This document shows positions 15,602 to 50,147 of a stretch of DNA of 64,000 bases, piece by piece. Origin of the DNA: Patescibacteria group bacterium (GTDB taxonomy: Bacteria; Patescibacteriota; Microgenomatia; UBA1400; PJMF01). Position 1 is the first letter of the stretch, and each line of letters begins with the position of its first letter. The stretch is from the NCBI GenBank assembly GCA_041747555.1, contig JBGTEY010000011.1:118274-182273 (forward strand), given 5' to 3'. The notes under the pieces are model-generated. The model had not been told where the DNA came from. It was given only the letters and a program-made list of their open reading frames with translations, and did no database searches. Both the position numbers and the translations under genes were made by a program.

Positions 15602-16930
15602 ATGCCTGAACTGTACGATCCAATTCTTGTACAAACACTCAAAAAAGACCGTCAATTCCTCGAGGAAACCGATGTTCCGATCGTCACGGTTTCTGCATCG
15701 TTTAAAGAAGACCTCAAAGGTTTTCAGGGCTATCCAGAGGTAGAAACCATCCCAGATGTTGTTTTTTCCCGCGCGCACTACTCGATGGCAGTCGCGGTTG
15801 CTACAGAAATTTGGAAATCCACAATCAATCCCAAAAAAGCCTGGGTGGTTGACCCCACCAATCACGTTTCGCACGACAACTGGTCCACGATTGTCTTGAC
15901 AGAAACTATCGGAAAAACACTCGCCCGCAACCCAATCCTCAAGCTTCTCAAAGATTTTGTAGACACATTTGCTCGCCAAAAACTGCCAATCCTCGACGGC
16001 ATCACCCCACCACTTCTCTATTTAACCGAAAAAATACCAAAAAATAAGACAATTTTGTCTTTGCATATAGCCGCGGGCAATATTTTGGCTGCCCAGGGGA
16101 AAAAAGTCGTCCAAGTCATCACCGATCCCCACGTCCGCCCCGAGTACGTCGATCACGCTGCACTTTCCAGCATGGAGTACTGCGTCTTTGACGAACCTAC
16201 CAAATTAGAATTCCTCGAGATTGCGGCCGTCAGAAACATCAAAGCCGACCCGAACCGTATCCACGTCACCGGCCCCCCGATCGATCCCCGCATTATTCGC
16301 GCACGAGCTAAAAAACACCCGTGGCGCAGTGGTCCGCTCAAACTCTGTATCACCACCGGCGGCCTCGGCACCAACAAACAAGAGATCACCAAGCTCTTGG
16401 ACCAACTCTTACCCGAGCTCCGTCGCCGACCGTCCAAGTTTCAGATCCTCGTCTACGCCTCCACCCACCTCGATATACACGACCTTGTGCTCGAACTCGC
16501 AGAAAAGCACCGTGTATCAATTTCAAGTGACATGGACAAATCTGCAAAATTACGCCTACTTTACCACCCCCAAATCGTCGACGCCAACGAACTTTTGATC
16601 GAATACGGCTTCCCGTGGGCACACGGATTCATCACCAAGCCATCGGGAGACATGGCATATGACGCCGCGGCTTCGGGTAGTTTCTTGCTAACACTTCCTG
16701 AATGGGGCGTGTGGGAGGAACACATTAGAGAAATTTTTGAACAAAAAAGCATCGCCCGCGAGGCCCGAATCGACGCTATCGTGCCGCAACTTAATGTTTT
16801 GATGTCTTCTGCGGGAAAATCTCAGTCTTGGATTGAGAAAGCACAGCACAACGCGCTCAGACTTGAGTCGTTATTCTTGGATGGAACCAAAGAGATTGTG
16901 AAACTTATTTCAACTTCTTCGAAAGCGTGA
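15602..16930 (+). CDS. glycosyltransferase, MGDG-synthase/UgtP (GT28)-like
   Basis: 442 aa; C-terminal GFITKPSGDMAYDA resembles the ITKPGG motif of processive diacylglycerol glycosyltransferases. Confidence 0.45.
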   Translation: MPELYDPILVQTLKKDRQFLEETDVPIVTVSASFKEDLKGFQGYPEVETIPDVVFSRAHYSMAVAVATEIWKSTINPKKAWVVDPTNHVSHDNWSTIVLTETIGKTLARNPILKLLKDFVDTFARQKLPILDGITPPLLYLTEKIPKNKTILSLHIAAGNILAAQGKKVVQVITDPHVRPEYVDHAALSSMEYCVFDEPTKLEFLEIAAVRNIKADPNRIHVTGPPIDPRIIRARAKKHPWRSGPLKLCITTGGLGTNKQEITKLLDQLLPELRRRPSKFQILVYASTHLDIHDLVLELAEKHRVSISSDMDKSAKLRLLYHPQIVDANELLIEYGFPWAHGFITKPSGDMAYDAAASGSFLLTLPEWGVWEEHIREIFEQKSIAREARIDAIVPQLNVLMSSAGKSQSWIEKAQHNALRLESLFLDGTKEIVKLISTSSKA

Positions 16931-20407: not shown

Positions 20408-22120
20408 ATGAATACAACATCAAACTCCACCGCTTCTTCCGATAATCGGAGCACCATATCGTCAAAAAGCGTAAGTCCTTGGCAAACCATAAGCATTGTA
20501 CTCTCAACGCTCCTTGTGATTTGTGGCGCACTCGGTCTCGTGTATTTGCAAAAACCCCTCAGAGAAACTCAGTATATACAACCAGAAGCGTCCGTGGATG
20601 TTGGATTAGTCACTGTTTCCTCAAGAAGTACGACTGGTGCGATGTCACAAGGTGTTCCATCAAGCGTTATTTTTTCTGTTGATACTGCAGGAGCACAAAT
20701 TCATGGGGTGCAATTAGTTTTTAATGTCGTGTCAAATGCAGCGGACAATTTGGGTATCAAAGTCCTTGAAAGTTCCGGTCTCAAAACTGCATTCTTAGAA
20801 ACCGAGCGTACCAATGATGGCTACTTAGTTGGCGTTGTAGCGCTCCCTCAGGAGGAATCAGCAGGATATAGCACGACGGCGGCTACAGATTTTCTTGAGA
20901 TTGAATTCACACCTCGGCACGGTGGGACCATAGAATTTAATTTTGATGTAGAAGAATCTTTTGCATCTCTATATGGTTCAGAGCCACTCAAAGATGAATT
21001 AACGCATATTGAAACAATCATTTACCATATCTCTGGCGAACCGGCCACTTCCACCACTACTGTTGCCGCAGGCCAAGCTCCTGCACCAGATCCAAACAGC
21101 ACCGCACAGTGCAATGAGACGTGCACCGACAATTCAGAATGTCCAATAAATCACCGATGCGTGGATGTCTCGGGCACCAGTCGTTGTCGGCTGGCAACAA
21201 ACATCTCAAGTGAGTATTGCTCAACTAAGCTTACCGTCCAATCGCAACAAACTGCCTCCCAAACCACGTTCGCTCAGTGCAACGAACAATGCACTCGCCA
21301 TGCAGACTGCGCAGCTGGATTCGCTTGTCTTGAAGGAGCATGCCGTCATCCCCAAAATCCAGACAATACATCTTGTCAGGAACCACTAGAGTCGGATCTG
21401 GTAACAATTTCACAATCATGTAATTCGGCCTGCACTCAGAATTCCGATTGTGCAACGAACCTTCGGTGCTTTTCTGGTAGCTGTCGTCTGGCCACTAATG
21501 TCAGTAGTAGCACTTGTGCAGCAGGTTACACCGGAACTGTTTCGTCTATTTACAACAAATCAAAGGGTGGTGATATTTCAAACCAGCAGACAGGCAACAA
21601 CACCCCACAACCTGGCATTGGAAGTGGCGTCAGCGACGAGATCAATTCTTTGGAAGGACAAGTCACCTCTGCAGTTGATGAGATTCCTCCTGACGAAACT
21701 GTATGGGAGATGCTAAAAACTATGCTGCAAACTAGAGAATTATCTCTCCCACTTTTAATTTTATTTGCCGGAAGTTGGCTCTTTATCCTCGCAGTCGCTT
21801 GGCTTATCGTGAGAACAATTAAAGATAGAGCTGCCAAACCCAAACCGCTCACCCCCATCGTCATTGATCGCTCCGCTACAGAAATAAGCAGCACATCACC
21901 AATTTTAGAAATTAAAAAAGAGTCTAGCTCACCAATAACTCCTGAACCAACTACCCTCCCCCCTTCATCTACTATTCCCAAAGTTGTAGACATACCAGTG
22001 CCACCAGCAACTTCATCACCAACCCAAATACCCCCAGCACCAAAAACCTCAATGATGCAGCGAGTAAGAGACAAGGGTATCTCACCTCCCTCACCAAAAT
22101 CACCGCAAAATGACCAATAA
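20408..22120 (+). CDS. two-TM surface protein with three tandem six-cysteine modules and Pro/Ser/Thr-rich tail
   Basis: TM1 near aa 30-48, three repeats C-x3-C-x5-C-x5-C-x4-C-x10-C (CNETCTDNSECPINHRC..., CNEQCTRHADCAAGFAC..., CNSACTQNSDCATNLRC...), TM2 near aa 445-468, PST-rich C-terminus. Confidence 0.55.
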   Translation: MNTTSNSTASSDNRSTISSKSVSPWQTISIVLSTLLVICGALGLVYLQKPLRETQYIQPEASVDVGLVTVSSRSTTGAMSQGVPSSVIFSVDTAGAQIHGVQLVFNVVSNAADNLGIKVLESSGLKTAFLETERTNDGYLVGVVALPQEESAGYSTTAATDFLEIEFTPRHGGTIEFNFDVEESFASLYGSEPLKDELTHIETIIYHISGEPATSTTTVAAGQAPAPDPNSTAQCNETCTDNSECPINHRCVDVSGTSRCRLATNISSEYCSTKLTVQSQQTASQTTFAQCNEQCTRHADCAAGFACLEGACRHPQNPDNTSCQEPLESDLVTISQSCNSACTQNSDCATNLRCFSGSCRLATNVSSSTCAAGYTGTVSSIYNKSKGGDISNQQTGNNTPQPGIGSGVSDEINSLEGQVTSAVDEIPPDETVWEMLKTMLQTRELSLPLLILFAGSWLFILAVAWLIVRTIKDRAAKPKPLTPIVIDRSATEISSTSPILEIKKESSSPITPEPTTLPPSSTIPKVVDIPVPPATSSPTQIPPAPKTSMMQRVRDKGISPPSPKSPQNDQ

Positions 22121-27935: not shown

Positions 27936-29528
27936 TCACCCGCCCATCACCACTGGCAAAGAAATACTATTTTCAGGCCTAGCTGCCTCATACTCAATCC
28001 CCCACTTAAGTTTAGCGGGAGAAACATCGGCATTTCCCAGATTAAATTTCATAGTTAACTCATAGCAAGTATTGGGACTCGCACCATTTTCCCAATACCC
28101 CACCGAAAAATCATTGACATCCATGTACCGCCAACCTTGATCAATCACCGTGCCGGAGGCATCTCGCTTCTCTACACGCAACATAAGTAGTGCATTTGTG
28201 TTGGGGATCATGTATCGAGTTTCAACACCATTTTCATGTATATATTCCAACCGCTCAACTCCTTTTTCAAATGGATTTTGGTTTAATTTGAACTGCCCAT
28301 CAATTACTTTTCCAGCAAACGTGGGCTCTGTGGTAAATTTTTTCTTAAGTCGAGTTGAAGCATAATCTTTGTCATACGTTTGATAGATCTTATATTCCAC
28401 GGTTTCATCAGGTCCAGCTACCCAACGATTTTGATTCTCCTGGTCTGCAATCTTGAGGATATGTGTGGGCGCAAATTCTGAGACAAAATCCCAGAGCGTT
28501 TCTGGGTATGTTTTGACGCGATCATGTAGCCATCCTTTTTCGTATCTGCGATTAATAAGCGCTTTTTCGTGTCTTCCAAGCAGGAGCGAGTCTATTCCTC
28601 CTGTCCACATACCATTACGATCATCATCTCGGCTAGACTGCAAGTATTTTAACCACTCAGTTGGTAATCCTTCAAGTGCGCTATCTGTGACAGCAGTACT
28701 GTTTTCAGTTTCCTGTTGTGAAAATTGCTGGAGCGCTTTAATTAATTCCAGTTCAATCTTTGGGTCGCCTCCTACTATCGCTTGTAAGCGCGGTATATTT
28801 TTTAGCAACAGCTTAATCGTATCAAATGATACCTGGTACTCCTCCTGATCAAAATACCCATCAATGGCATAAAAATCAGGCATTCCTGGCAACTGATAAT
28901 GACCTTCCTCATGCAAATATCCTGCGTCAATCATCAGCGCAAATATGTAATAGGCGGCAAGTGTAGGATTATACGGTCGATGAAACCACAACCCAATTAC
29001 CGCATTACTGTCCATAAATGACTCCCCGTCATTAATGTTAAACGGAGTAATTGAAGGCTCTGCATCGTCTGCCATGACAATGACACGCTTGAGTGTGGCA
29101 CCACCAGCTAGATTGGTTTGCCCTTTAAGTATTTCGTCCATTTTTTCATGCTGAGATTTGGCAAAATGTTGGAAATCTTCATGTCCTGTTTCGGTGTGGA
29201 TGGCATGTTCGCCATTGTATTCTTCTGCCCAAACCAGTGCTGTTGCAGTCATGCCATTTACTGGTCTCTTGTTTTCTCCATCTAAAAATTTTTGATTGAG
29301 GTGATCGCGGAGCGCGATTAGTTGTTCGTTGGTGAGGGGTTCGTTATGACCGTATGTCTCAACTCCATTAATAAACTGAGGTTCCGGAACAGCAACAGTT
29401 TCTTGCGCAGTGAGTGTTTCTACTGCTTTGCCCAGAAAACTACTTCTCGCCTTTTTGAGAGCTAGAAGTGCCGCCAAAATAGCGCCCAGCCTCAGAACAT
29501 CTCTTCTTGGTATGATGTGCTTTTCCAT
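27936..29528 (-). CDS. secreted hypothetical protein (possible Tat-type signal)
   Basis: ~530 aa; N-terminus PRRDVLRLGAILAALLAL resembles twin-arginine signal; no recognised catalytic motif. Confidence 0.45.
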   Translation of the reverse strand: MEKHIIPRRDVLRLGAILAALLALKKARSSFLGKAVETLTAQETVAVPEPQFINGVETYGHNEPLTNEQLIALRDHLNQKFLDGENKRPVNGMTATALVWAEEYNGEHAIHTETGHEDFQHFAKSQHEKMDEILKGQTNLAGGATLKRVIVMADDAEPSITPFNINDGESFMDSNAVIGLWFHRPYNPTLAAYYIFALMIDAGYLHEEGHYQLPGMPDFYAIDGYFDQEEYQVSFDTIKLLLKNIPRLQAIVGGDPKIELELIKALQQFSQQETENSTAVTDSALEGLPTEWLKYLQSSRDDDRNGMWTGGIDSLLLGRHEKALINRRYEKGWLHDRVKTYPETLWDFVSEFAPTHILKIADQENQNRWVAGPDETVEYKIYQTYDKDYASTRLKKKFTTEPTFAGKVIDGQFKLNQNPFEKGVERLEYIHENGVETRYMIPNTNALLMLRVEKRDASGTVIDQGWRYMDVNDFSVGYWENGASPNTCYELTMKFNLGNADVSPAKLKWGIEYEAARPENSISLPVVMGG

Positions 29529-29765
29529 TAAAAAAATCATACCAAAATTTGGCAGAAATATAGATATGGAATGCAATAAGATAAAAAAACCCAGCAATCT
29601 GTGCGATCACTGGGCTTCCTCCCGACTCTACTCCAACAACGCCTTTCATCGGGACGCGCGTTGGGACTTTTTTTGCTACTCTGAAAAGCAACTTTGTTTG
29701 GGCTGGTGCCCTAGGCTGACTTTAGGTTTCAATCCTTAAGCCAACCCGTCCTCTAAATCACCCTT

Positions 29766-33340: not shown

Positions 33341-33394
33341 TTCGCACAACAACTGCGTGAGAATTTTTGTTCTCACAGTGTATTTGAAAATAGA

Positions 33395-33428
33395 AACACG
33401 CTCCAGAAGGGGCGTGTTTTTTTATTGG
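33395..33428 (+). terminator. intrinsic terminator after rplL
   Basis: AACACGC-TCCAGAAGGG-GCGTGTT followed by TTTTTTTAT. Confidence 0.6.
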
Positions 33429-33556: not shown

Positions 33557-34450
33557 ATGATGCTAGAAGTAAGTACCGATGAAGCGATCTTTCAAGTTCA
33601 CGATGCAGTACAGCCGGGGGTAGATACAACTGATGTTAGTCCAAACGCAGTCAAAAATACAAAAGATACTCAGATATCAGCTGCTGAAAGCACTCGCAAC
33701 ACACTGAGAAATTTACTTGATCAAGAGGGCCAAAATTTGCCTGAAGCGAGTCTCAGCTATCAACTCGATTGGGCTGTCGACCATCTCTCGGGGGCTGATG
33801 CACTGACTCAAGCTGCTAACGAACAACTTACCCACTTTGTGCGACAAGAAGATTACTTTTCAGTCGTCAATAGACTTCTCTCACCTCAATACAGATCGAT
33901 CTCAATTCCGGCATTCCAGTCAACAGAGGTTATTGGACGACTCTATGAGGAAGCCGAAGCAAAAGGTAATTTTTTCCAAATGCGAAGAATCGCTGAACAG
34001 ATGGCACGAGCTGGAGAGTCAGGAATAAAAGCTGCACTTCCATTTTCACCAGATGATAGCAAGTATAATACTGGCTGGGAAGCCCGTGACCTTAACTTAT
34101 TGGATCAAGATATTGACGCTGCCTGCAAAAGCTGGGAGGAGGCCAGAGATTTGCCTGATTTTAACTGGGAGCTCCATCAGCTGATAGGCATGCTAAAAGA
34201 TGAGATTTTTATTAGTAGCGGATATAGAAATCTGGACATCACCAACCCACACTATGCCAAAATTCTCAAAGCGTATTGTGATCAGCTAGTTCAACGAGGT
34301 ATTCCTGATGCAGCGCTCTCCTTGGCACATCAGTTTCGTCTTCCTGCGACGTCAATTGCTGAGTACCGCAAGCTAGTGCGCAACCCAGCACAAATCATGG
34401 AAAATATGAAACAACGCTTTCAAAAAATTATTGATCTCCTACCAAGTTAA
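33557..34450 (+). CDS. hypothetical protein
   Basis: 297 aa, soluble, helical; no recognised motif. Confidence 0.4.
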   Translation: MMLEVSTDEAIFQVHDAVQPGVDTTDVSPNAVKNTKDTQISAAESTRNTLRNLLDQEGQNLPEASLSYQLDWAVDHLSGADALTQAANEQLTHFVRQEDYFSVVNRLLSPQYRSISIPAFQSTEVIGRLYEEAEAKGNFFQMRRIAEQMARAGESGIKAALPFSPDDSKYNTGWEARDLNLLDQDIDAACKSWEEARDLPDFNWELHQLIGMLKDEIFISSGYRNLDITNPHYAKILKAYCDQLVQRGIPDAALSLAHQFRLPATSIAEYRKLVRNPAQIMENMKQRFQKIIDLLPS

Positions 34451-34488
34451 CGGGTAATAAATGCTTCAACACATGCTATACTCCCCTC

Positions 34489-36879
34489 ATGTCCACGCCG
34501 CATACCCTGATCAAAGACGGCCAGCCCATTCAGTACAACCCTCCGTTTTCTGCGTTTCCTCAGTTTCTTGAGAACCTTGCAGAAAATGATCCCACCAAAC
34601 AAGCCATCGTCTTTGTGCCCATCAAAGGCACAAACATTACGCTCACCAGAGAAGATCTTGCTGACTCCGTAGCCACGCTCGCAGCCACCATGCAAAAAAG
34701 CTGGAATTTAGATGTAAGTGATGCTATCTCATTTTGCCTTCCGAACACCCCAGAGGTGTTACTAATAAATTACGCTGCCTGGAGCCTTGGATTACTGTCC
34801 GTGCCACTCGATAGCACCAGAGATACCACCGAGCGCAAAATTTATAAGCTCCAACAAACCAATGCCCAAGTGCTCGTCACCAGAGACGACAAGAAGTCGC
34901 TCTTTGAAAATGCAGAAATCCAAAATGCTCTGCCCCACCTCAAGATCCTCACCTTCAAAAACTTCACCGACTTCAAAAAACAACTTCTTTCCAAAAAACT
35001 CACTCCAGACTATCCAGAGACCGATTTTTCAGAACCGGCCCTTATTCTCTACACCTCTGGCACGACAGCTCTCCCCAAGGGTGTCGAGCTCACTGTCACC
35101 AGCCTTTTTGCCAACGCTGCTTGCATTAGGGATTGGCTCCAGTTCACCCCAGAGGACCGCTGGCAGGTTCTTTTGCCACTCCACCACATCAACTCAACTA
35201 CTTTTGCCAACACCACCCTCTTGGTTGGTGGGACGATAATCTTAGTTGAACACTACTCCAAGTCTCGGTTTTGGCAGTATTTAGCAGAGACAAACTCGAC
35301 TGGAGCTTCCATCGTACCCACCATTGCTTACGATCTCCTTACAGAACAGCAAACATTTGAAAAACATCAAGCAAAACTCAAGCAAGTTGCGCGGTTTCAG
35401 CTCGGATCGGCCCCTGTACAACCCAGAGTTGTCGAGCAGTTCATGAAACAGTTCAATATTCCGCTCTATCAAGGATATGGCCAGACAGAAACTTCCCTCA
35501 GAAGCACTGGTGTACCCATGGATTTAACCAAAAAAGAGTATGAGCATATCAGGGAACTCAACTCGCTTGGAACAGAAATGTCGCTCGCCAACGTTACCGT
35601 TCTTGACGAAAAAGGCTCTGAGCTCGAGGCAGAAGCAGTCGGTGAAATTTGTGTTCGCGGACCAATTATCATGCGTGGCTACCTCAAGAACATCGACGCC
35701 ACAGAAGAATCTTTCGCTCATGACTGGTTCCATTCTGGCGACACCGGTTACTATCGAGAGCTCTATGACAGAAAATTCTTTTTTCTCAAGGGAAGAAGTA
35801 AGGAAATTATCAAAAAAGGTGGTGTCCTCCTCTCGCCACTCGCCATAGAAAACGCCCTCCTCGCACACTACCCTGACCTTGATCAAGTGTATGTCATTGG
35901 TTTTGACGACGCACGCCTGGGAGAGCGAATTGGGTTCGTCGCAGTGACGAAAGTCCACGACCTAGTCCCCCAAATACTTGAAGATGCTAAAAAAGGCGCT
36001 ATTCCCACGCTCAAACCATATGAATTACCTGATAGTGGTCTCAGGATCACCCCAGAAGTACTCCCCAAAACTGCCACCGGAAAAGTCCAGCGTCTTGAGA
36101 TAAAAAAACAGTTCGGACCGTTACTCTTAGAGGCATTTCGCACCATCGCACTTGCTGATGATGGCACCAGATTCAGATTGATCGGTCCAGAAGAAGAAAA
36201 AGTACTCTCCAAAGCCGCTGAAATCGATGAAAATCGTTGGGGTTCTCACCTTGCTGGCAGTTCCGCATCATTCATGCAAAGAGCACAAAATGGAGCGCTA
36301 ATAGGCGCATTTGATGATCGAAATTCTCTCCTTGGAACCATCTCTGCTGTCCGCCTGGATGAGACTGAATTGCTGGATTCAATTCAACCTGATCACTGGG
36401 CCTCTACTTGGGATGGAATTACTGGCAATGGCACACTCAACACCAATTCGCACAAAGGTGACACACTGGTGCTGGTTGCCGTCGCGGTGGCCTCTGGAAA
36501 AGCAACATCGCCCAGTCCCACCCCACCCAAACCAATTTCAGAAAAACTGCACCAAGAAAGCCTCAAGCACCTCCAAAAGTATGCGAAATCAGGCGAAGAC
36601 CCCGTCCTGGCGTTTCATGGCATGAAAAAAGCTGGAATGCCATCGGGAGCAACGGTTGTTCATAGTCTCCCAAACTCTCGCCCTGCGGATTGGATGGCTC
36701 TTGGTCACAATGTGTTGGTGCAGTATCCCGAGATTTCAAGTGAGCCGGTGATTAGCGTTCCAGCTAGTACCGGCACGCAATTGGTCGAAGCGGCAATCCT
36801 CTATGCATTTCAAAATGGCATCACCAACGTCTATGCCTATTCTCGACCGGCGAAATACCATGATTACCTGACTAAATAA
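34489..36879 (+). CDS. AMP-forming adenylating enzyme (acyl-CoA synthetase-like) fused to ~270-aa C-terminal domain of unknown function
   Basis: ANL-superfamily core motifs YTSGTTALPKG, GYGQTE, FHSGDTGYY, GRSKEIIKKGG, PKTATGKVQR in first ~530 aa; C-terminal region without recognised motif. Confidence 0.8.
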   Translation: MSTPHTLIKDGQPIQYNPPFSAFPQFLENLAENDPTKQAIVFVPIKGTNITLTREDLADSVATLAATMQKSWNLDVSDAISFCLPNTPEVLLINYAAWSLGLLSVPLDSTRDTTERKIYKLQQTNAQVLVTRDDKKSLFENAEIQNALPHLKILTFKNFTDFKKQLLSKKLTPDYPETDFSEPALILYTSGTTALPKGVELTVTSLFANAACIRDWLQFTPEDRWQVLLPLHHINSTTFANTTLLVGGTIILVEHYSKSRFWQYLAETNSTGASIVPTIAYDLLTEQQTFEKHQAKLKQVARFQLGSAPVQPRVVEQFMKQFNIPLYQGYGQTETSLRSTGVPMDLTKKEYEHIRELNSLGTEMSLANVTVLDEKGSELEAEAVGEICVRGPIIMRGYLKNIDATEESFAHDWFHSGDTGYYRELYDRKFFFLKGRSKEIIKKGGVLLSPLAIENALLAHYPDLDQVYVIGFDDARLGERIGFVAVTKVHDLVPQILEDAKKGAIPTLKPYELPDSGLRITPEVLPKTATGKVQRLEIKKQFGPLLLEAFRTIALADDGTRFRLIGPEEEKVLSKAAEIDENRWGSHLAGSSASFMQRAQNGALIGAFDDRNSLLGTISAVRLDETELLDSIQPDHWASTWDGITGNGTLNTNSHKGDTLVLVAVAVASGKATSPSPTPPKPISEKLHQESLKHLQKYAKSGEDPVLAFHGMKKAGMPSGATVVHSLPNSRPADWMALGHNVLVQYPEISSEPVISVPASTGTQLVEAAILYAFQNGITNVYAYSRPAKYHDYLTK

Positions 36880-37278: not shown

Positions 37279-37590
37279 ATGAATCAGGCAACACAACCAA
37301 TCGCCAACTTGCCAACCGACAGTCAGGATGGTGATGTTGAAAATTCCGCAGAAGACAAACGAACCGGTCGCGCTGACGATGCCAGCAAACTTGATATCAA
37401 CAATCTTCCGGATCTCTTGACTGTTCGAGAAGTTGCAGATTTGCTCAGAGTTTCTCCGCTCACTATTAAACGATGGGGTAAGCGCGGTAAATTGCCAGCA
37501 ATTCGGATCAATTCCAGAGGTGACAGACGATACAAAAAAGAAGCTGTGCTTTGGCTGCTAGGTATAGACGCATCTGACGATGAGTCATAA
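37279..37590 (+). CDS. helix-turn-helix DNA-binding protein (excisionase/MerR-like HTH)
   Basis: LLTVREVADLLRVSPLTIKRWGKRGKLPAIRI...RYKKEAVLWL. Confidence 0.6.
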   Translation: MNQATQPIANLPTDSQDGDVENSAEDKRTGRADDASKLDINNLPDLLTVREVADLLRVSPLTIKRWGKRGKLPAIRINSRGDRRYKKEAVLWLLGIDASDDES

Positions 37591-39216: not shown

Positions 39217-40662
39217 ATGACTGAATCTGTATCTAACCTCCGCGAACGCTATCCGGTGTTTCATGTATTGAATCCCACCTGGGAACTCGGTGAAACTGCA
39301 TTAAAAATCACGTGTCACTACCAAACCGGCGAGCACTCCTTCGACCATACCCTTGAGTTTCACGACATTCCTTACGATCGCGTTGCAGAATTACCGCAAT
39401 CCGCGCAAGTATACCTAAGTAGACAGATTGCCCTGGTTGAAGTATTTAATTACTGGAAACTCACCTGCTCGCCAGAGATTCATGCCGCTTGGCATATGAC
39501 AACCGAGGAACAAGGCTGGTGGCACAATCTCCTCGAACACGGCATGGGTGAATATTTTTATCAAAATAACATCGCCTTTAGCAAGCCGGATTTCATCAAA
39601 TTTACTTCAGAAGACGGCACTGCACCAGAGGAAACACAACTTTTTGTAGACCGAGAACAACCGTCATATCTAATTCCCGTTGGTGGTGGCAAAGATTCGT
39701 CCGTCACGCTCGAGCTCCTCGGCAAGTATGCCAGACAAGAAGGCTATCGCTCAGCCACAATTATGGTAAACCCCAGCAAAGCTGCTAAAACCACTGCTGA
39801 GACCAGCCCTGTAGAAACGCACCTCACGATCACCAGAACGCTCGATCCGCTCCTCCTCAAGCTCAACGGCGAAGGCTTTCTCAATGGCCACGTCCCATTC
39901 TCTGCGATGTTGGCAATGCTTGGGTTTACTGCAGCAGTGCTTCATGACTACAACTCCATCCCAATTTCTAACGAGCGCAGCTCAAATGAAGGCAATGTTT
40001 CTTTTCAAAACCGCACTATAAATCACCAATACTCCAAAACCTATGCCTTTGAGACAAGTTTTAGAGATTTCGGGGCAATGGCATTTTCACAAAGTCCTGA
40101 TTACTTTTCTTATCTGAGGCCATTGTACGAGCTGCAAATTGCGCAGCTCTTTGCCACCATGCCGCACTATCATCAACTATTTCTCAGTTGTAACCGCAAC
40201 CAAAAACAAAACACATGGTGTGGCACCTGTCCCAAGTGCCTTTTTACCTATAGCGCGCTCCTTCCCCATCTAGGAGAACCAAAAACCACTGAGATTTTTG
40301 GGACCGCTGTGTTAGAAAATGAGTCACTCTTCCCCCTCGCTCTTGAGCTTGTTGGCCAAGAAGCCTGCAAGCCATTTGAATGCGTTGGAACGCAAGAAGA
40401 ATCAATTGTGGCACTGTATTTATGCCAAGAATGGTTTGAGCAACGATCGCTTCCACTCCCCAAATTACTAAAAGAAATCAGCGTTCACGTCCTGCGCAGT
40501 GAACCGGGATTATTTGAGCGCTCTCAAGCACTGCTCGACTCCTGGAATAATCGCCACCACATACCTGTGGATCTCGAGTCAATTCTAAGAGATGCGCTGT
40601 CTCACATTCCGCAACCGCAACTTACTCAAACTGCAGAACCAATACAAAACCAAGATCAGTAG
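39217..40662 (+). CDS. hypothetical PP-loop-like ATPase-fold protein with C-terminal CxxCxxC cluster
   Basis: PVGGGKDSSVTLELL resembles SGGxDS PP-loop; WCGTCPKCLF Cys cluster; translationally adjacent (20 nt) to murD-like gene. Confidence 0.45.
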   Translation: MTESVSNLRERYPVFHVLNPTWELGETALKITCHYQTGEHSFDHTLEFHDIPYDRVAELPQSAQVYLSRQIALVEVFNYWKLTCSPEIHAAWHMTTEEQGWWHNLLEHGMGEYFYQNNIAFSKPDFIKFTSEDGTAPEETQLFVDREQPSYLIPVGGGKDSSVTLELLGKYARQEGYRSATIMVNPSKAAKTTAETSPVETHLTITRTLDPLLLKLNGEGFLNGHVPFSAMLAMLGFTAAVLHDYNSIPISNERSSNEGNVSFQNRTINHQYSKTYAFETSFRDFGAMAFSQSPDYFSYLRPLYELQIAQLFATMPHYHQLFLSCNRNQKQNTWCGTCPKCLFTYSALLPHLGEPKTTEIFGTAVLENESLFPLALELVGQEACKPFECVGTQEESIVALYLCQEWFEQRSLPLPKLLKEISVHVLRSEPGLFERSQALLDSWNNRHHIPVDLESILRDALSHIPQPQLTQTAEPIQNQDQ

Positions 40663-40681: not shown

Positions 40682-42181
40682 ATGCTCTCACTCAATCCTT
40701 TACCAGAAGAAGTTGCGCACGCAAAAACAATTGTACTGTTCGGACTAGGGAGAGAGGCGCATTCAACGTATACGTTTTTGAAAAACTATGCGTCTCTGAG
40801 TCAAGTAGGATCAGCCCCTGATTTTTCATTTGTGCTCATGGATGATCAACAACTAGAGCAAATCAGTCCAGTCTGGAAAGAAGTTGCAGATCAGGAAAGT
40901 GTGACATTTGTGGGATCGGTAGTGCCAGACGTTGATCCTGCTTCAACACTACTCTTTGTTTCCCCCGGAATCCCACCCACTCATTCTATTCTTGCACAAT
41001 TACTGCAAAGAAATATTCCACACACTTCCAACACCGATCTCGCACTCAAATTACTTCCCAAAAATGTCCACACCATAGGCATCACCGGCACCAAGGGCAA
41101 AAGCACCACCTCCGCACTCATTCACCACGTGTTGACTGTAGGTAAAACACCCACTTTTTTGGGAGGGAATATTGGCACTGCTCCACTTGACGTGGTCGCA
41201 CAGATTGCACACTCACCAGAGGTTGCACATGAAACATCAGCCGCTACTCTTGCAGCCATCGCAGTCCTTGAGCTCTCAAGCCACCAACTCCGCACCACAA
41301 CGGTGAGTCCACAGATTGCCGTCATTCTTGATATTACGCCAGAGCACCTCGATTATTACCATACATTCGAAGAATACCAGTCGGCCAAGGCAAAAATCGT
41401 CGCCCATCAAACAGCTAACGACATCGTTGTCTTCAATCCTGATCACGAAACCGCTGCAGCAATTGCCGCAACATCTGCAGGTAAAAAGCTCGAATTCACC
41501 ACCCATCCGCCGCTCTCGCCAACCTCTGACGACTATCCTGTTGTTGCGTATTTACATGAAAATAAATTGATGTACGGTTCAGAAACCATTCTAGAAGACA
41601 CCGATCAAATGCAAATTATTGGCAACCACAATAGAGAAAATGCCCTCCCCAGTGTAGTTATTGCTAAAGAATATGGGCTCGAAAATCAGCAAATCGCAAC
41701 AGCGCTTCTAAATTTCACAGGATTACCACATCGCTTGCAGTTCGTAGCAGAAGATCGAGGCGTATGGTACATTAATGACTCACTTTCAACAACTCCAGAG
41801 GCAGCAGTGGCTGCGCTGCAGACATTCAACGATTCTTCTGTTGTTCTCATCGCTGGTGGCCACGATCGTCATCTCGACTTTGGCCCCCTGGCCCGCCAAA
41901 TTCTCGCACAATCGGTCACCGCGCTCATCACCTTCCCTCCGACAGGCGAACAAATCACCCGCGCCCTCTACCAGATGCAGCCAAACAGCCCTCTCCTCCA
42001 AGAGGCAGGTTTCAAGGTCAATTCCATGAGCGAAGCCGTCAGCATTGCCAAAAAAATGGCTCGACCAGGAGACGTTGTGCTCTTGAGTCCGGGAAGTGCG
42101 AGCTTTGGATTATTTGAGGATTATGCAGATCGTGGTGAGCAGTTCGTGAATGCAGTGACAGACCATTCAGACGCCCAATAG
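40682..42181 (+). CDS. murD: UDP-N-acetylmuramoyl-L-alanine--glutamate ligase (MurD family)
   Basis: Mur ligase P-loop GITGTKGKSTTSAL, central and C-terminal Mur ligase domains; AAGGA RBS. Confidence 0.75.
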   Translation: MLSLNPLPEEVAHAKTIVLFGLGREAHSTYTFLKNYASLSQVGSAPDFSFVLMDDQQLEQISPVWKEVADQESVTFVGSVVPDVDPASTLLFVSPGIPPTHSILAQLLQRNIPHTSNTDLALKLLPKNVHTIGITGTKGKSTTSALIHHVLTVGKTPTFLGGNIGTAPLDVVAQIAHSPEVAHETSAATLAAIAVLELSSHQLRTTTVSPQIAVILDITPEHLDYYHTFEEYQSAKAKIVAHQTANDIVVFNPDHETAAAIAATSAGKKLEFTTHPPLSPTSDDYPVVAYLHENKLMYGSETILEDTDQMQIIGNHNRENALPSVVIAKEYGLENQQIATALLNFTGLPHRLQFVAEDRGVWYINDSLSTTPEAAVAALQTFNDSSVVLIAGGHDRHLDFGPLARQILAQSVTALITFPPTGEQITRALYQMQPNSPLLQEAGFKVNSMSEAVSIAKKMARPGDVVLLSPGSASFGLFEDYADRGEQFVNAVTDHSDAQ

Positions 42182-42208: not shown

Positions 42209-42961
42209 TTAGTTTTTTTTCTCAATTGTTGCGGTAATTGCTTTATGATCGCTCACTCCAGCATGTAATTTCACGTCTCGAGCCACAAATCCGTCAGTCA
42301 AAAACAATCCATCTACCATTAAGTTAGCCGTTTTCCCAATTGGATGAATATCAGGATCAAGTGATGTCACATACTCTTGAGGAATATAATCAGTAAATAG
42401 TTCCGCAAATGCAGTAAATACCTTCTCTCCTCTGGGGGCATTAAGATCGCCGCAGAAAATTAATTCATCATACTTCGCAAACACTTTTTTGAGTGATTCA
42501 AGCGCTTCCCATTGCTCTGGATTGTCTTTGCCGTTGGGTGTCCAGACAAAATGCGTCGTTGCGACGGGATATATCACTCCATCAACCTCAATCTGCGCCA
42601 CAAGCAGTTTTCTGACTGGAGAAAGTGGATCTGTAAATTCTGGAACCTCACCATCACTCTCGTCTCCATTTGACTCTCGATGTGGATTTAGATACAAATG
42701 CGAAGTCACTTCCATTGGGTGTGCAGAAAAACAAGCAATTCCCTGCTCGCCAAACAACTGATGGGTGAATCTGTTTTCTTTGGTAAACGTTGTTAGTGAC
42801 GCATACTCACCGTGCATTCCGCCTAGCATTTCAGATACCAACTCCAAATCCATCTTAAAAATTTCTTGAAAACAAACGACATCCGCTGTATTTTTGGTGA
42901 AAAATTCGGCAAGTTTATCAAGATGTCGGCGGCCTTCGATATTGACTGAAATTAGTTTCAT
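42209..42961 (-). CDS. endonuclease/exonuclease/phosphatase (EEP) family protein
   Basis: VVCFQEIF, GDLNAPR, SDHKAI motifs. Confidence 0.7.
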   Translation of the reverse strand: MKLISVNIEGRRHLDKLAEFFTKNTADVVCFQEIFKMDLELVSEMLGGMHGEYASLTTFTKENRFTHQLFGEQGIACFSAHPMEVTSHLYLNPHRESNGDESDGEVPEFTDPLSPVRKLLVAQIEVDGVIYPVATTHFVWTPNGKDNPEQWEALESLKKVFAKYDELIFCGDLNAPRGEKVFTAFAELFTDYIPQEYVTSLDPDIHPIGKTANLMVDGLFLTDGFVARDVKLHAGVSDHKAITATIEKKN

Positions 42962-44004
42962 ATTCCTATACCTCTCCCTTCCTGCGAATACCCCAAGCTC
43001 TCCCTAAATAAATCCAGATGTTCCAGCGCGGTCGAAATCCCATGAATCACCACCAAATCAGAGTGCTCCACCACAGAAACGGGTACACCCAATCGAGCAG
43101 TCGCAAAACTTGTGAAATCAGAAAGCTGAGCCAGACCACCAGACAACAACAGTCCTTTATCAATCACGTCACTCGTTAATTCAGGGGGTAATTTGGACAA
43201 TAACTTAGTGAGTACATTCAAGTAGCGCTCAGCCACAACGGTCACTTCAGGTAGAAAATCACTAGCTTTGACCGCAACTTCTTTTGGGTTGCCGTGTTGC
43301 ACGTCTTGACCAGCTACAAGTGATTGGGCACCTTCACTTCCGGTCACAGAAACAACAGATTTTAGTAATTTACTTGCTTCAGAACGACTGACAACGATAG
43401 CGTGCTCTTTTTTAAGAGAAAATTGTAAGCGTTCTAGTAAATGAATTCCCGCATACTTCGTATCAACAGCGCTCACAATACTCCCTAGAGAAATAACCGC
43501 ACCCTCAACAACTCCTGCTCCCATGTGCAAGAAAAAACTTCCCGAAGCATCTGCAATCGGCACGCCAGAACCAATACTCGCTGCCAAAGGTTGAGAAATC
43601 GTATACACCTCCCCTGCTCCCACGTCGTACATGAGTTGCGTCATGGCTTGGCGGGCAGTTTGGGTACTGAGCGCTGGGACACTGGCCATGATGACAGGAC
43701 TTATCAGGGGTTTTCGCTTTAATTCTCGCTGTAATAATACCTTAAGCAAGGCTAGGCCAATCGTGCTGTCGTACAATTCTCCCGCAACAACTGGATAGTG
43801 AATTGAGATGTGTTCCCCAACGCGACCTTCCATTTCTTCTGCGTCGGTTCCGACTGCAATCACGCGCTGTGTGGTGTTTTCAATGGCAATGCAGGCTGGC
43901 TCATCGACGATCAATCCACCCGCGTCAACCCAAATTCGCACTCGACTAGAACCGAGATCGATTCCGACACGGCGGACTAGTTTGGGAATACTTGGAAATT
44001 TCAT
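42958..44004 (-). CDS. mreB: rod-shape-determining actin homolog MreB
   Basis: GIDLGSSRVRIWV, EPAAASIGSG-like (SQPLAASIGSG), GAGVVEGAVISLG, LLSGGLAQL motifs collinear with MreB; 348 aa. Confidence 0.8.
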   Translation of the reverse strand: MKFPSIPKLVRRVGIDLGSSRVRIWVDAGGLIVDEPACIAIENTTQRVIAVGTDAEEMEGRVGEHISIHYPVVAGELYDSTIGLALLKVLLQRELKRKPLISPVIMASVPALSTQTARQAMTQLMYDVGAGEVYTISQPLAASIGSGVPIADASGSFFLHMGAGVVEGAVISLGSIVSAVDTKYAGIHLLERLQFSLKKEHAIVVSRSEASKLLKSVVSVTGSEGAQSLVAGQDVQHGNPKEVAVKASDFLPEVTVVAERYLNVLTKLLSKLPPELTSDVIDKGLLLSGGLAQLSDFTSFATARLGVPVSVVEHSDLVVIHGISTALEHLDLFRESLGYSQEGRGIGI

Positions 44005-49013: not shown

Positions 49014-50147
49014 CTAGCTCCGACTCACTTCCCAAACTGTCATCGACCCGCTCCCCACTTTAGCCCGAGTGTCATTGTCAGACAGCTCGACTCTAAATTT
49101 ACTCACAAATGGATAGAGCAAGAAAATACTCTTGGCAGCTAACTTCATGCGATCGCCATATATTTCATTGAACATTTTTGCGAAAGAATCTCGATACCGC
49201 ACCCCTTTTTGAATAAATAATCGCTGGATCAGCCCCGGCATCCAAATCCGGTTATTTCCCTTGGTAAAAGATTCAAATTTCTTCTCAAGTTGCTCCACGC
49301 TAAAATCCAAATGCCACACAAATTCCTCAACTCCCACATGCCAACTGGACCGCACGATCAATGCATTTAAGAAAATATGCTTGTCTTTCTCAAGCGCTTT
49401 ATGCTTCACGCCAGACGCAAACGAGCGATCGCCGATCCGCTCTCTACCAACATGCATTTTGTCCGCTGCAACGAGCGCCCACTGCAATGGCGTCCCTTTC
49501 TCAAGTGGCTGATCAAGCGCAATTAACACCGGCTCTTCATGAAATAATATTGCATAGAGTGCGTGATTAAATTCGTACGGGTGCTCTTGCCATTTATCAA
49601 ACATCTTTGTCAAAAGCCAAGCGCTGTACGTACTGTGCTCTTTTCTACTCAAGAAATTACCAAGATCATGCGTCATGCCCACCAACGTCATCAGCACCTC
49701 AGATTTGGCTCCATATTCTGATCTGCCGTCGTAGGACACACCGGCTCTTTGGAGGAGCTCTACGCCGTTTTGAGTGACCCAGAGGGTGTGTCTGTCGGTG
49801 TGGTCGTTGAATCCGTGCTCGCGCTCAAGATCTAGGACTGGTCCGACATAATCCAAAGCCTTGCCGAAGCCTTGATAGAGGTACGATAATGCAGATCCTC
49901 GAGATCCAAGATGTAAAAATTCTGGGAAATTATAGACTTTTCTGAGTTGAGGCTGTGGATGATACGTTAAGAACGGAAAATCGGACTTGTCATAAGGTAT
50001 GTTGCTTTCTTTGAGAAATTTCCAGAATGGCGTGTCATCTTGGCGCAAGAATCGTGTGTTAGAAAGTGCTTTGTTGAGAAACGTTTGGGGATGCTCGCTA
50101 GCCTGGGTTGTGGATTTTGGTGGTTTTTTTTGTGTTCTTGAAGACAT
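49014..50147 (-). CDS. HD-domain phosphohydrolase (dNTP triphosphohydrolase-like)
   Basis: H...H (DRHTLWV) and MTHDLGN HD motif; 377 aa. Confidence 0.5.
   Translation of the reverse strand: MSSRTQKKPPKSTTQASEHPQTFLNKALSNTRFLRQDDTPFWKFLKESNIPYDKSDFPFLTYHPQPQLRKVYNFPEFLHLGSRGSALSYLYQGFGKALDYVGPVLDLEREHGFNDHTDRHTLWVTQNGVELLQRAGVSYDGRSEYGAKSEVLMTLVGMTHDLGNFLSRKEHSTYSAWLLTKMFDKWQEHPYEFNHALYAILFHEEPVLIALDQPLEKGTPLQWALVAADKMHVGRERIGDRSFASGVKHKALEKDKHIFLNALIVRSSWHVGVEEFVWHLDFSVEQLEKKFESFTKGNNRIWMPGLIQRLFIQKGVRYRDSFAKMFNEIYGDRMKLAAKSIFLLYPFVSKFRVELSDNDTRAKVGSGSMTVWEVSRS

What the first reader, a model, noticed from the sequence alone, without database searches (positions are those of the whole stretch)
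33557..36879. Adenylate-forming enzyme fused to an uncharacterised 270-aa C-terminal domain, paired with a hypothetical protein
The 796-aa protein has all ANL-superfamily motifs (A3 YTSGTTALPKG, A5 GYGQTE, A7 SGDTGYY, A8 GRSKEIIKKGG, A10 PKTATGKVQR) in its first ~530 residues. It is followed by a 270-aa domain with no recognisable motif. That domain could be an acyl-acceptor or transferase module, making a self-contained acylation system. The upstream 297-aa hypothetical may be a partner or substrate.
Basis: partly seen in the sequence, partly recalled or inferred. Interest (0 to 1): 0.5.

Follow-up and report, generated by a model that had tools for sequence, protein, structure and literature searches.

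The report
Acid-CoA ligase fused to rearranged decarboxylase domain
A gene from an ultra-small (CPR/Patescibacteria-type) bacterium fuses an acid-activating enzyme to a rare domain that has the fold and catalytic residues of malonyl-CoA decarboxylases but with two pieces of the fold in swapped order, so one protein probably activates and then decarboxylates a small dicarboxylic acid.

Summary
ORFs 33557-34450 (297 aa) and 34489-36879 (796 aa) exist, and all five quoted ANL motifs are present.

The C-terminal ~256 aa has no Pfam or NCBIfam hit, but it is not an ordinary extension. It is a well-folded domain (AlphaFold pLDDT 95.5).
- Its best structural matches are the four known GNAT-fold decarboxylases: CurA GNAT_L, GphF, SxtA and human malonyl-CoA decarboxylase.
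- The decarboxylase residues His/Ser(Thr)/Tyr are conserved (H710, S785, Y746).
- The alpha3-beta5 block sits at the C-terminus instead of after beta4. This is a non-cyclic segment swap, supported by profile-profile tests.

The ANL domain is closest to oxalyl-CoA synthetases. Its acyl pocket is altered but invariant within the family and includes an invariant Arg338.

The fusion is a rare family (96 representatives in 1.84 billion proteins), found mainly in Patescibacteria, with one hit in a Woesearchaeota MAG. It has no conserved neighbours.

The upstream 297-aa ORF is an orphan, absent even from a syntenic relative, so it is not a conserved partner.

Best reading: a one-protein ligase-decarboxylase that converts a malonate-type acid to acyl-CoA and then to decarboxylated acyl-CoA plus CO2. 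The architecture is well supported; the substrate and chemistry are inferred. I rate it a new variant of a known kind.

The parts
34489..36879 (+). Fusion gene, 796 aa: ANL adenylate-forming domain plus C-terminal GNAT-fold decarboxylase-like domain
   Evidence: ORF. The full-length architecture is conserved at 36-49% identity in 9 genome loci and in every metagenome locus long enough to show it.
34489..36108 (+). ANL (AMP-forming acyl-CoA ligase type) domain, residues 1-540
   Evidence: Pfam AMP-binding 28-399 (E 1e-64) and AMP-binding_C 453-532. Best PDB relatives are oxalate-CoA ligases: 5IE0 E 6e-50, 6QJZ E 2e-46. Motif coordinates: A3 35050-35082, A5 35473-35490, A7 35734-35754, A8 35791-35823, A10 36064-36093.
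35173..35502 (+). Acyl-pocket segments of the ANL domain: LPLHHINS (35173-35196), GSAPV (35404-35418), TETSLR (35485-35502, with invariant Arg338 at 35500-35502)
   Evidence: Positions equivalent to the AtAAE3 oxalate pocket (V215, H216, C288, S289, A313, M314, H319; PMC8905533) are I234, N235, G306, S307, G331, Q332 and L337. All are invariant in 22 fused proteins except 332, which is Q or S. R338 is invariant.
36109..36492 (+). Block A of the C-terminal domain (residues 541-668): linker helix, beta1-alpha1-alpha2-beta2-beta3, inserted helices, beta4 (HKGDTLVLVAVAV)
   Evidence: AF2 secondary structure. Aligns co-linearly with the N-terminal half of CurA and SxtA GNAT_L and of the sister family.
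36493..36732 (+). Block C (residues 669-748): variable Pro/Ser-rich linker, long helix, then the alpha4-beta6-beta7 equivalent. Carries DPVLAFH (His710 at 36616-36618), the family-specific KxxG insertion with invariant K714, NSRPAD (Arg731 at 36679-36681, Asp734) and VLVQY (Tyr746 at 36724-36726)
   Evidence: HMMER and hhalign align this block to CurA DPLLRFH...GYRPKD...VLVSY, which holds His389, Arg404 and Tyr419 (residue roles from PMC3701320). D704, F709, H710, K714, D734, G739 and Y746 are invariant in 34 sequences.
36733..36876 (+). Block B (residues 749-796): alpha3-beta5 equivalent moved to the C-terminus. Carries GTQLVEAA (CoA-pyrophosphate-loop/alpha3 equivalent) and YAYSRP (Ser785 at 36841-36843, invariant Arg786)
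   Evidence: In native order it matches the sister family out of order (hhalign second hit, E 9e-11). Moving it to follow beta4 gives one co-linear alignment, with the score rising from 211 to 276. Against CurA/SxtA, AYSRP aligns to AVTLC, which holds Thr355.
33557..34450 (+). Upstream 297-aa ORF. Probably co-transcribed here, but a lineage-specific orphan and not part of the conserved unit
   Evidence: No significant Pfam or NCBIfam hit. No homolog in any related locus, in the metagenome scan or in PDB. In the syntenic relative L021 the same slot holds unrelated ORFs.
33392..33421 (+). Intrinsic-terminator-like hairpin (13-bp stem plus T run) after rplL, marking the upstream boundary of the transcription unit
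37279..37590 (+). Downstream MerR/excisionase-type HTH gene (103 aa). Syntenic only in the closest relative and not a conserved partner
   Evidence: Pfam HTH_17/MerR_1. 86% identical copy directly downstream of the fusion in L021, absent from all other loci.

Best explanation
The 796-aa protein is a two-step enzyme on one chain. Step 1 (ANL domain, residues ~1-540): a small, probably anionic carboxylic acid is adenylated with ATP and then thioesterified to CoA, as in oxalyl- and malonyl-CoA synthetases. An invariant Arg338 in a remodelled acyl pocket, whose substitutions relative to oxalyl-CoA synthetase are mostly to smaller residues, is proposed to hold the distal carboxylate. Step 2 (residues ~541-796): the acyl-CoA is passed to a GNAT-fold domain of the decarboxylase clade (CurA GNAT_L / GphF / SxtA DC / malonyl-CoA decarboxylase). 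There His710 and Ser785, with His710 positioned by Tyr746, polarise the thioester carbonyl. The beta-carboxylate leaves as CO2 and the enolate is protonated. The net reaction is malonate-type acid + ATP + CoA -> acetyl-CoA (or alkyl-acyl-CoA) + CO2 + AMP + PPi, equivalent to a fused MatB+MatA pathway. The decarboxylase domain has an unusual topology: the alpha3-beta5 element, which carries the catalytic Ser and the CoA-pyrophosphate loop, has moved from its normal place after beta4 to the C-terminus (order A-C-B instead of A-B-C). Shown: the domain identities, the fold, the swap, the conservation of catalytic-equivalent residues, the conservation of the fusion, and its restriction mainly to Patescibacteria (with one Woesearchaeota MAG). 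Inferred: the substrate, the use of CoA, the decarboxylation itself, and any hand-over between domains.
For: ANL domain: complete motif set. Oxalate-CoA ligases are the best PDB relatives by about 14 orders of magnitude over the next group, and malonyl-CoA synthetases also match. Pocket positions are invariant across 22 fused proteins, including R338.

Catalytic map: CurA H389/T355/Y419/R404 correspond to HsMCD H423/S329/Y456 (roles from PMC3701320) and align to H710 (invariant), S785 (Ser or Thr in all 34), Y746 (invariant) and R731.

Segment swap: hhalign goes from two out-of-order hits to one co-linear hit after un-swapping, and the same happens against CurA/SxtA.

Fusion: conserved end to end in 9 of 10 genome loci and in all sufficiently long metagenome loci, with no conserved neighbour, which fits a self-sufficient unit.
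Against: No biochemical data exist. The nearest characterised ANL relatives use oxalate, and oxalyl-CoA cannot be decarboxylated by enolate chemistry, so the malonate-type assignment rests on pocket changes and on the partner domain. NCBIfam malonyl-CoA synthase scores only 170 bits against a cutoff of 558. According to PMC11685415, the PKS GNAT-like decarboxylases act on carrier-protein-bound substrates, and no ACP is present here. Stand-alone copies of the permuted domain lack an adjacent ANL gene, so the two activities need not be obligatorily coupled. Catalytic equivalence was inferred from alignments because the model coordinates could not be superposed with the available tools. The benefit to a CPR cell of spending two ATP equivalents to make acetyl-CoA from malonate is unclear.
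Confidence: 0.45

Rival explanations
1. Self-contained acylation system. The ANL domain makes an acyl-CoA or acyl-adenylate, and the GNAT-fold domain transfers the acyl group to an amine, hydroxyl or thiol acceptor such as a cell-envelope precursor, amino acid or protein.
Against: The best sequence and fold matches are all decarboxylases. The position of the canonical Tyr general acid is an invariant His, as in CurA and MCD. There is no carrier domain of the Ebony type. No acceptor-supplying gene is conserved nearby.
Confidence: 0.2
2. The C-terminal domain is catalytically silent. It would serve as a CoA or acyl-CoA sensing, oligomerisation or regulatory module for an otherwise ordinary acyl-CoA ligase, like the pseudo-GNAT domains in some PKS loading modules.
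For: Inactive pseudo-GNAT domains exist in PKS loading modules (my own recollection, not tested here). The beta4-to-helix linker is poorly conserved, variable in length and of low complexity, and it has the lowest model confidence in the domain (pLDDT ~74). The fusion protein evolves fast: ~47% identity in the syntenic relative against 74-86% for the neighbouring genes.
Against: Residues equivalent to the whole decarboxylase catalytic constellation (His, Ser/Thr, Tyr, Arg), plus D704, K714, D734 and R786, are invariant or nearly so across 34 diverse sequences and in the sister family. Stand-alone versions exist, which argues for an autonomous activity.
Confidence: 0.1
3. Autoregulatory or protein-acylating fusion. 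The GNAT domain would acylate the catalytic A10 lysine of the ANL domain (or of other proteins), as Pat/AcuA-type GNATs do to acetyl-CoA synthetase.
For: GNAT-mediated acylation of the ANL A10 lysine is a widespread regulatory mechanism (established knowledge). The A10 Lys532 is only ~20 residues upstream of the GNAT-fold domain.
Against: Pat-type GNATs are canonical N-acetyltransferases with the usual topology and catalytic residues. This domain belongs to the decarboxylase clade, with His replacing the general-acid Tyr. Known Pat fusions carry an NDP-forming, not an AMP-forming, synthetase-like domain (my own recollection).
Confidence: 0.05

Closest known systems
GNAT-like decarboxylase domains of PKS loading modules (CurA GNAT_L 2REE/2REF, GphF 6MFC, SxtA DC 7UCI)
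   Different: There is no PKS, ACP, adaptor or methyltransferase context, and the domain is fused to an ANL ligase. The alpha3-beta5 block is moved to the C-terminus. A family-specific 6-residue insertion with invariant K714 follows the catalytic His. The hosts are CPR bacteria rather than cyanobacteria or myxobacteria.
Malonyl-CoA decarboxylase (MCD / MatA; human 2YGW, C. metallidurans 4KS9) together with malonyl-CoA synthetase MatB (matABC pathway)
   Different: No MCD N-terminal helical domain and no Pfam MCD hit. The topology is permuted. The two activities sit on one chain. The ANL domain is nearer to oxalyl-CoA synthetases than to MatB.
Oxalyl-CoA synthetases (AtAAE3 5IE0-5IE3, LsOCS 6QJZ, yeast-type 8AFF)
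   Same: Closest characterised relatives of the ANL domain (E 6e-50 and 2e-46). Ser289 of the oxalate pocket is conserved as S307.
   Different: The OCS-specific His319 is Leu337, followed by an invariant Arg338. H216 becomes N, C288 becomes G, A313 becomes G, and M314 becomes Q or S. The protein carries an extra C-terminal domain.
Unannotated stand-alone sister family with canonical GNAT order (P0079-P0096, ~220-260 aa)
   Same: Shares the motifs (GNTLVC, AYSRP, H..GA, RPxD, Y) and aligns at E 6e-42 after un-swapping.
   Different: Canonical A-B-C order and never fused to ANL in the sample. It is also uncharacterised: the representatives returned carry no precomputed Pfam domain.

Membership tests
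ANL superfamily (class I adenylate-forming enzymes) | Core motifs A3 (P-loop), A5, A7, A8 (hinge) and A10 (catalytic Lys), and Pfam AMP-binding plus AMP-binding_C above threshold | tested here: met
   All motifs are present. PF00501 scores 219 bits (cutoff 29.9) and PF13193 scores 29.4 bits (cutoff 24.5).
Oxalate-CoA ligase (AAE3/OCS) | OCS-specific oxalate-contacting Ser289 and His319 (PMC8905533) | tested here: not met
   Ser is conserved (S307), but His319 is Leu337 in all 22 fused proteins.
Malonyl-CoA synthetase (MatB) | NCBIfam NF005702 score above cutoff | tested here: not met
   170 bits against a cutoff of 558. PDB MatB hits have E ~1e-25, weaker than the OCS hits.
Malonyl-CoA synthetase (MatB) | Malonate-carboxylate-binding residues of MatB structures | not tested
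   The structural papers were not available. Only the presence of an invariant pocket Arg338 was established.
GNAT superfamily | GNAT fold (mixed beta-sheet with a beta4/beta5 splay and flanking helices) | tested here: met
GNAT superfamily | Canonical element order beta4-alpha3-beta5-alpha4-beta6-beta7 | tested here: not met
   The order is beta4-(helix)-alpha4-beta6-beta7-alpha3-beta5.
GNAT N-acetyltransferases (canonical) | Tyr general acid (and usually a Glu general base); Pfam Acetyltransf_* hit | tested here: not met
   The Tyr position is an invariant His710. The window protein has no Acetyltransf Pfam hit. The general-base Glu was not examined.
GNAT-fold decarboxylases (CurA GNAT_L / GphF / SxtA DC / MCD) | His-Ser/Thr catalytic dyad with the supporting Tyr | tested here: met
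   By alignment, H710, S785 (Ser or Thr in all members) and Y746 align to CurA H389, T355 and Y419 (roles from PMC3701320). A 3D superposition was not possible with the tools.
GNAT-fold decarboxylases (CurA GNAT_L / GphF / SxtA DC / MCD) | Closest fold neighbours are members of this group | tested here: met
GNAT-fold decarboxylases (CurA GNAT_L / GphF / SxtA DC / MCD) | Decarboxylation of a malonyl-type thioester | not testable with these tools
   Requires an enzyme assay.
PKS loading-module GNAT_L | Embedded in a PKS module with a downstream ACP (and an adaptor or MT domain) | tested here: not met
   The protein ends at the GNAT-fold domain. No PKS or ACP gene was seen among the annotated window ORFs near the fusion, and no neighbour family is shared among 25 loci.
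Malonyl-CoA decarboxylase (Pfam MCD) | N-terminal helical oligomerisation domain plus MCD catalytic domain signature | tested here: not met
   No MCD Pfam hit at E <= 1. The region before the GNAT-fold domain is the ANL domain.
Ebony-type A-T-(GNAT-like condensation) enzymes | Thiolation (carrier) domain between the adenylation and GNAT-like domains | tested here: not met
   Only ~20 residues separate A10 (526-535) from beta1 of the C-terminal domain, and there is no PP-binding hit.

The most novel reading that the evidence does not exclude
Patescibacteria, and possibly some DPANN archaea, carry a previously unrecognised single-polypeptide pathway. A dicarboxylate-CoA ligase is hard-wired to a topologically rearranged (non-cyclically permuted) GNAT-fold decarboxylase, which would let these metabolically minimal symbionts turn a scavenged host acid (malonate or an alkylmalonate) directly into acetyl- or acyl-CoA. 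The domain would be the first GNAT-fold enzyme known with its alpha3-beta5 catalytic and CoA-binding element transplanted to the C-terminus.
Probability: 0.35. Interest if true: 0.7.

Novelty: new variant of a known kind. Interest (0 to 1): 0.58.

Why it matters
CPR/Patescibacteria genomes are full of unannotated proteins, and how they obtain central metabolites such as acetyl-CoA is poorly understood. This family gives a concrete, testable candidate: one protein that would take a free dicarboxylic acid to a decarboxylated acyl-CoA. It extends the small group of cofactor-free GNAT-fold decarboxylases beyond PKS loading modules and MCD. It also provides a natural example of a non-cyclic segment swap within the GNAT fold that keeps the catalytic residues, which bears on fold evolution and on annotation, since the swap probably helps explain why domain libraries miss it. 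A compact ligase-decarboxylase could also be useful for making acyl-CoAs in vitro.

Tried and rejected
(1) Word-indexed homolog searches with the C-terminal domain alone and with the family alignment returned only 1 and 4 proteins. The exhaustive HMMER search was needed to find the family.
(2) The first AlphaFold run, on a 2-sequence alignment, was useless (pLDDT 34). It succeeded with the 34-sequence alignment.
(3) The genome scan with the diverse alignment A3 failed for lack of conserved stretches. The tighter alignment A4 worked.
(4) The afdb50 fold library was unavailable, so UniProt/AFDB annotation of the family could not be checked.
(5) The MatB structure paper (PMC3426712) and Skiba et al. 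2020 (PMC6949403) are not held. MatB malonate-binding residues and the ACP-versus-CoA preference of the GNAT-like decarboxylases therefore could not be compared in detail.
(6) The 297-aa ORF as partner or substrate is rejected. It has no homologs anywhere searched and is absent from the syntenic relative.
(7) Conserved-neighbour analysis over 25 loci found nothing shared beyond the fusion itself.
(8) Oxalyl-CoA as the decarboxylase substrate was considered and rejected on chemical grounds (inference): there is no alpha-carbon to form an enolate, and the known oxalyl-CoA decarboxylase needs thiamine diphosphate.
(9) An alternative genetic code for the in-frame stop upstream of the fragment P0001 was rejected, because the stop is TAA.
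(10) Literature searches for a permuted GNAT decarboxylase, a natural MatB-MatA-type fusion, or MCD in CPR found nothing relevant.
Full report
OBSERVATION. The window carries two same-strand ORFs exactly as reported: 33557..34450 (297 aa) and 34489..36879 (796 aa). Pfam places AMP-binding at 28-399 (E 1e-64) and AMP-binding_C at 453-532. Residues ~541-796 hit nothing in Pfam or NCBIfam. The surrounding genes are NusG, L1, ThrRS, a CobW-type GTPase, L10, L7/L12, WecG/TagA, a MurL-like gene, MurD, a gene that looks MreB-like by eye (42958-44004, not searched), ArgRS and ComEC, plus many ORFs with no Pfam hit. Together with the closest homologs of the fusion being Patescibacteria MAGs, this suggests a CPR-type genome.

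THE C-TERMINAL DOMAIN IS A REAL, RARE FAMILY. A word-indexed search of 5.8 billion clusters found one fragment. An exhaustive HMMER search of 1.84 billion representatives found 96 proteins, 73 of them below 1e-10. They fall into three groups.
- ANL-fused proteins of ~690-830 aa. In the Pfam scan, 24 of 59 scanned members carry AMP-binding_C.
- Stand-alone proteins of ~240-310 aa with the same domain order.
- A weaker group of 220-260 aa (P0079-P0096) that matches in three stretches in permuted order.

A 34-sequence domain alignment (A3) has invariant D704, F709, H710, K714, D734, G739, Y746 and R786 (full-protein numbering), and Ser or Thr at position 785.

FOLD AND NEAREST RELATIVES. With A3 as its alignment, AlphaFold gives a confident model (pLDDT 95.5, pTM 0.93). 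The earlier 2-sequence attempt failed.
- Foldseek gives CurA at E 3e-7 and nothing else below 1e-3.
- By sequence, the A3 profile hits SxtA (E 6e-5), CurA (E 3e-4) and, faintly, GphF.

So the domain belongs to the GNAT fold, specifically to the small clade that has been repurposed as cofactor-free decarboxylases of malonyl-type thioesters.

CATALYTIC RESIDUES. The MCD structure paper (PMC3701320) states the following. CurA His389 and Thr355 form the decarboxylase dyad, equivalent to HsMCD His423 and Ser329. The His replaces the general-acid Tyr of canonical GNATs. Tyr419 (HsMCD Tyr456) holds the His. Arg404 contacts the main chain of Thr355. In the HMMER and hhalign alignments, CurA DPLLRFH...GYRPKD...VLVSY aligns to the window's DPVLAFH(710)...NSR(731)PAD...VLVQY(746), and CurA AVT(355)LC aligns to AYS(785)RP. 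His710 and Tyr746 are invariant, position 785 is always Ser or Thr, and Arg731 is mostly conserved. A 6-residue insertion carrying invariant Lys714 directly follows the catalytic His. It is specific to this family and absent from CurA and from the sister family.

SEGMENT SWAP. In CurA, SxtA and the sister family P0079-P0096 the order is as follows.
- Block A: beta1 to beta4.
- Block B: alpha3-beta5, with the G-x-G-type CoA loop and the catalytic Ser/Thr.
- Block C: helix, then alpha4 with the catalytic His, then beta6-beta7.

In the window's family the order is A-C-B. Block B (GTQLVEAA...YAYSRP) forms the last 48 residues. Evidence:
- The out-of-order HMMER stretches.
- hhalign of the family against the sister family gives two out-of-order hits in native order (scores 211 and 76; the second has E 9e-11). 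After block B is moved to follow residue 668, it gives one co-linear hit (score 276, E 6e-42).
- The same manipulation raises the CurA/SxtA alignment score from 75 to 88 and makes it co-linear over the whole domain.
- The AF2 secondary-structure string ends helix-strand-helix, as expected for alpha3-beta5.

A-C-B is not a circular permutation of A-B-C. It needs a segment transposition, for example through a tandem-GNAT intermediate followed by losses. This swap probably helps explain why domain libraries do not recognise the domain. I could not superpose coordinates, so the spatial equivalence of block B rests on the alignments and on model confidence.

THE ANL DOMAIN. Against PDB sequences the best matches are oxalate-CoA ligases: AtAAE3 5IE0 (E 6e-50) and LsOCS 6QJZ (E 2e-46). 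The next tier is at ~1e-36 (another oxalate-CoA ligase 8AFF, luciferases, FadD13, MenE). MatB malonyl-CoA synthetases are at ~1e-25. No NCBIfam equivalog cutoff is reached.

The AtAAE3 oxalate pocket is V215, H216, C288, S289, A313, M314, H319 and K500, with S289 and H319 specific to OCS (PMC8905533). In the window protein these positions are I234, N235, G306, S307, G331, Q332, L337 and K532. Across 22 fused proteins they are invariant, apart from Q or S at 332, and the next residue, Arg338, is invariant. The protein is therefore not an oxalyl-CoA synthetase, because His319 is missing. Most of the changed pocket residues are smaller than in OCS, and a conserved Arg is available. This suggests (inference) a somewhat larger anionic substrate.

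CONTEXT AND DISTRIBUTION. Genome scans found the full-length fusion in 9 of 10 GTDB loci. The carriers are two Daviesbacteria, Wildermuthbacteria, Kaiserbacteria, Nomurabacteria, two unclassified Patescibacteria, an unclassified bacterium and a Woesearchaeota MAG. The tenth locus, labelled Gammaproteobacteria, shows only partial matches. Every metagenome locus long enough to show it also has the fusion. Clustering ORFs from 25 loci shows that only the fusion is shared (24 of 25), and no neighbour family occurs in more than 3 loci.

L021 is a syntenic relative with the order rplJ-rplL-[~3 kb variable]-fusion-HTH-WecG. Its L7/L12 is 74% identical and its HTH 86% identical, but its fusion protein is only ~47% identical, and the upstream slot holds unrelated ORFs. 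Stand-alone permuted-domain genes (P0030, P0040, P0070) have no ANL neighbour. A sister-family member lies next to ATP-citrate-lyase-like genes, which is only a weak link to CoA metabolism.

THE 297-AA ORF. It is probably co-transcribed with the fusion. A strong terminator lies at 33392-33421 upstream, no terminator-like site lies between the two genes, and the gap is 38 nt. It has no significant family hit, no relative in any of the 37 related loci, none in the metagenome scan and none in PDB. It is a lineage-specific orphan in a variable slot and not a conserved partner or substrate.

MECHANISM (best reading, confidence ~0.45 for function and ~0.9 for architecture). The ANL domain adenylates a malonate-type dicarboxylate and thioesterifies it to CoA. 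The tethered GNAT-fold domain binds the acyl-CoA. His710 and Ser785, with Tyr746 in support, stabilise the enolate as CO2 leaves, giving acetyl- or acyl-CoA. This is the chemistry of MatB plus MatA/MCD on one chain.
- Shown: the domains, the fold, the swap, the conserved residues, the conserved fusion.
- Inferred: the substrate, the use of CoA, the decarboxylation, any hand-over between domains.

Oxalate itself is unlikely on chemical grounds, because oxalyl-CoA cannot form an enolate. The rivals are an acyltransferase module (0.2), a silent or regulatory domain (0.1) and self- or protein acylation (0.05).

NOVELTY. Neither the fusion, nor the family in CPR, nor a permuted GNAT decarboxylase appears in the searchable literature. 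The chemistry and both folds are known. The fusion, the topology and the phyletic restriction are new, so I rate it a new variant of a known kind, with interest 0.58.

Noticed in passing
window 39217-40662 (+) and 40682-42181 (+): The 481-aa ORF has no Pfam hit but matches NCBIfam NF041275 MurL (UDP-MurNAc-L-Ala-L-Glu epimerase) at E 5.5e-68 over almost the full model, below the equivalog cutoff. A MurD-type ligase follows immediately. This looks like a MurD2/MurL-type pair (L-Glu addition followed by epimerisation) in a CPR-like genome.
   Followed up: partly
window 59660-63910 (-): A 1416-aa ORF whose only Pfam hit is Peptidase_S74 (the intramolecular chaperone of endosialidase and tail-fibre proteins). 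It could be a large surface or fibre-like protein, or prophage-derived.
   Followed up: no
L021 3868-6792 (+): The syntenic relative's fusion protein is 974 aa, with extra insertions in the ANL domain and between the domains. It is only ~47% identical, while the flanking L7/L12 and HTH genes are 74% and 86% identical. The fusion gene evolves much faster than its neighbours.
   Followed up: partly
window 37279-37590 (+): A 103-aa MerR/excisionase-type HTH protein has an 86%-identical copy in the same position in L021. That is unusually high conservation for this region.
   Followed up: partly
L017 8001-8678 and 8760-13007: A member of the canonical-order sister GNAT-like family (P0081) sits directly upstream of ATP-citrate-lyase/citryl-CoA-synthetase-like genes (ATP-grasp_2/Citrate_bind, CoA_binding/Ligase_CoA, Citrate_synt). 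This may link the sister family to CoA-thioester metabolism.
   Followed up: no
L004 5061-8032: The stand-alone permuted-domain gene P0030 overlaps an upstream 385-aa gene by 32 nt, and that gene follows a 531-aa gene. Neither has a Pfam hit or any similarity to the ANL domain, so they could be lineage-specific partners of the stand-alone form.
   Followed up: no
window 10891-12642, 15602-16930, 20408-22120, 27936-29597, 49014-50147: Several large ORFs (377-583 aa) have no Pfam or NCBIfam hit.
   Followed up: no
L001 1-180: The only close homolog in the word-indexed collection (P0001, 44% identity) sits on a 915-bp contig. An in-frame TAA lies 18 codons upstream of its start, and similarity to the window protein seems, by eye, to continue weakly upstream of that stop. 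It may be a truncated or pseudogenised copy, or a genuinely shorter stand-alone form.
   Followed up: partly
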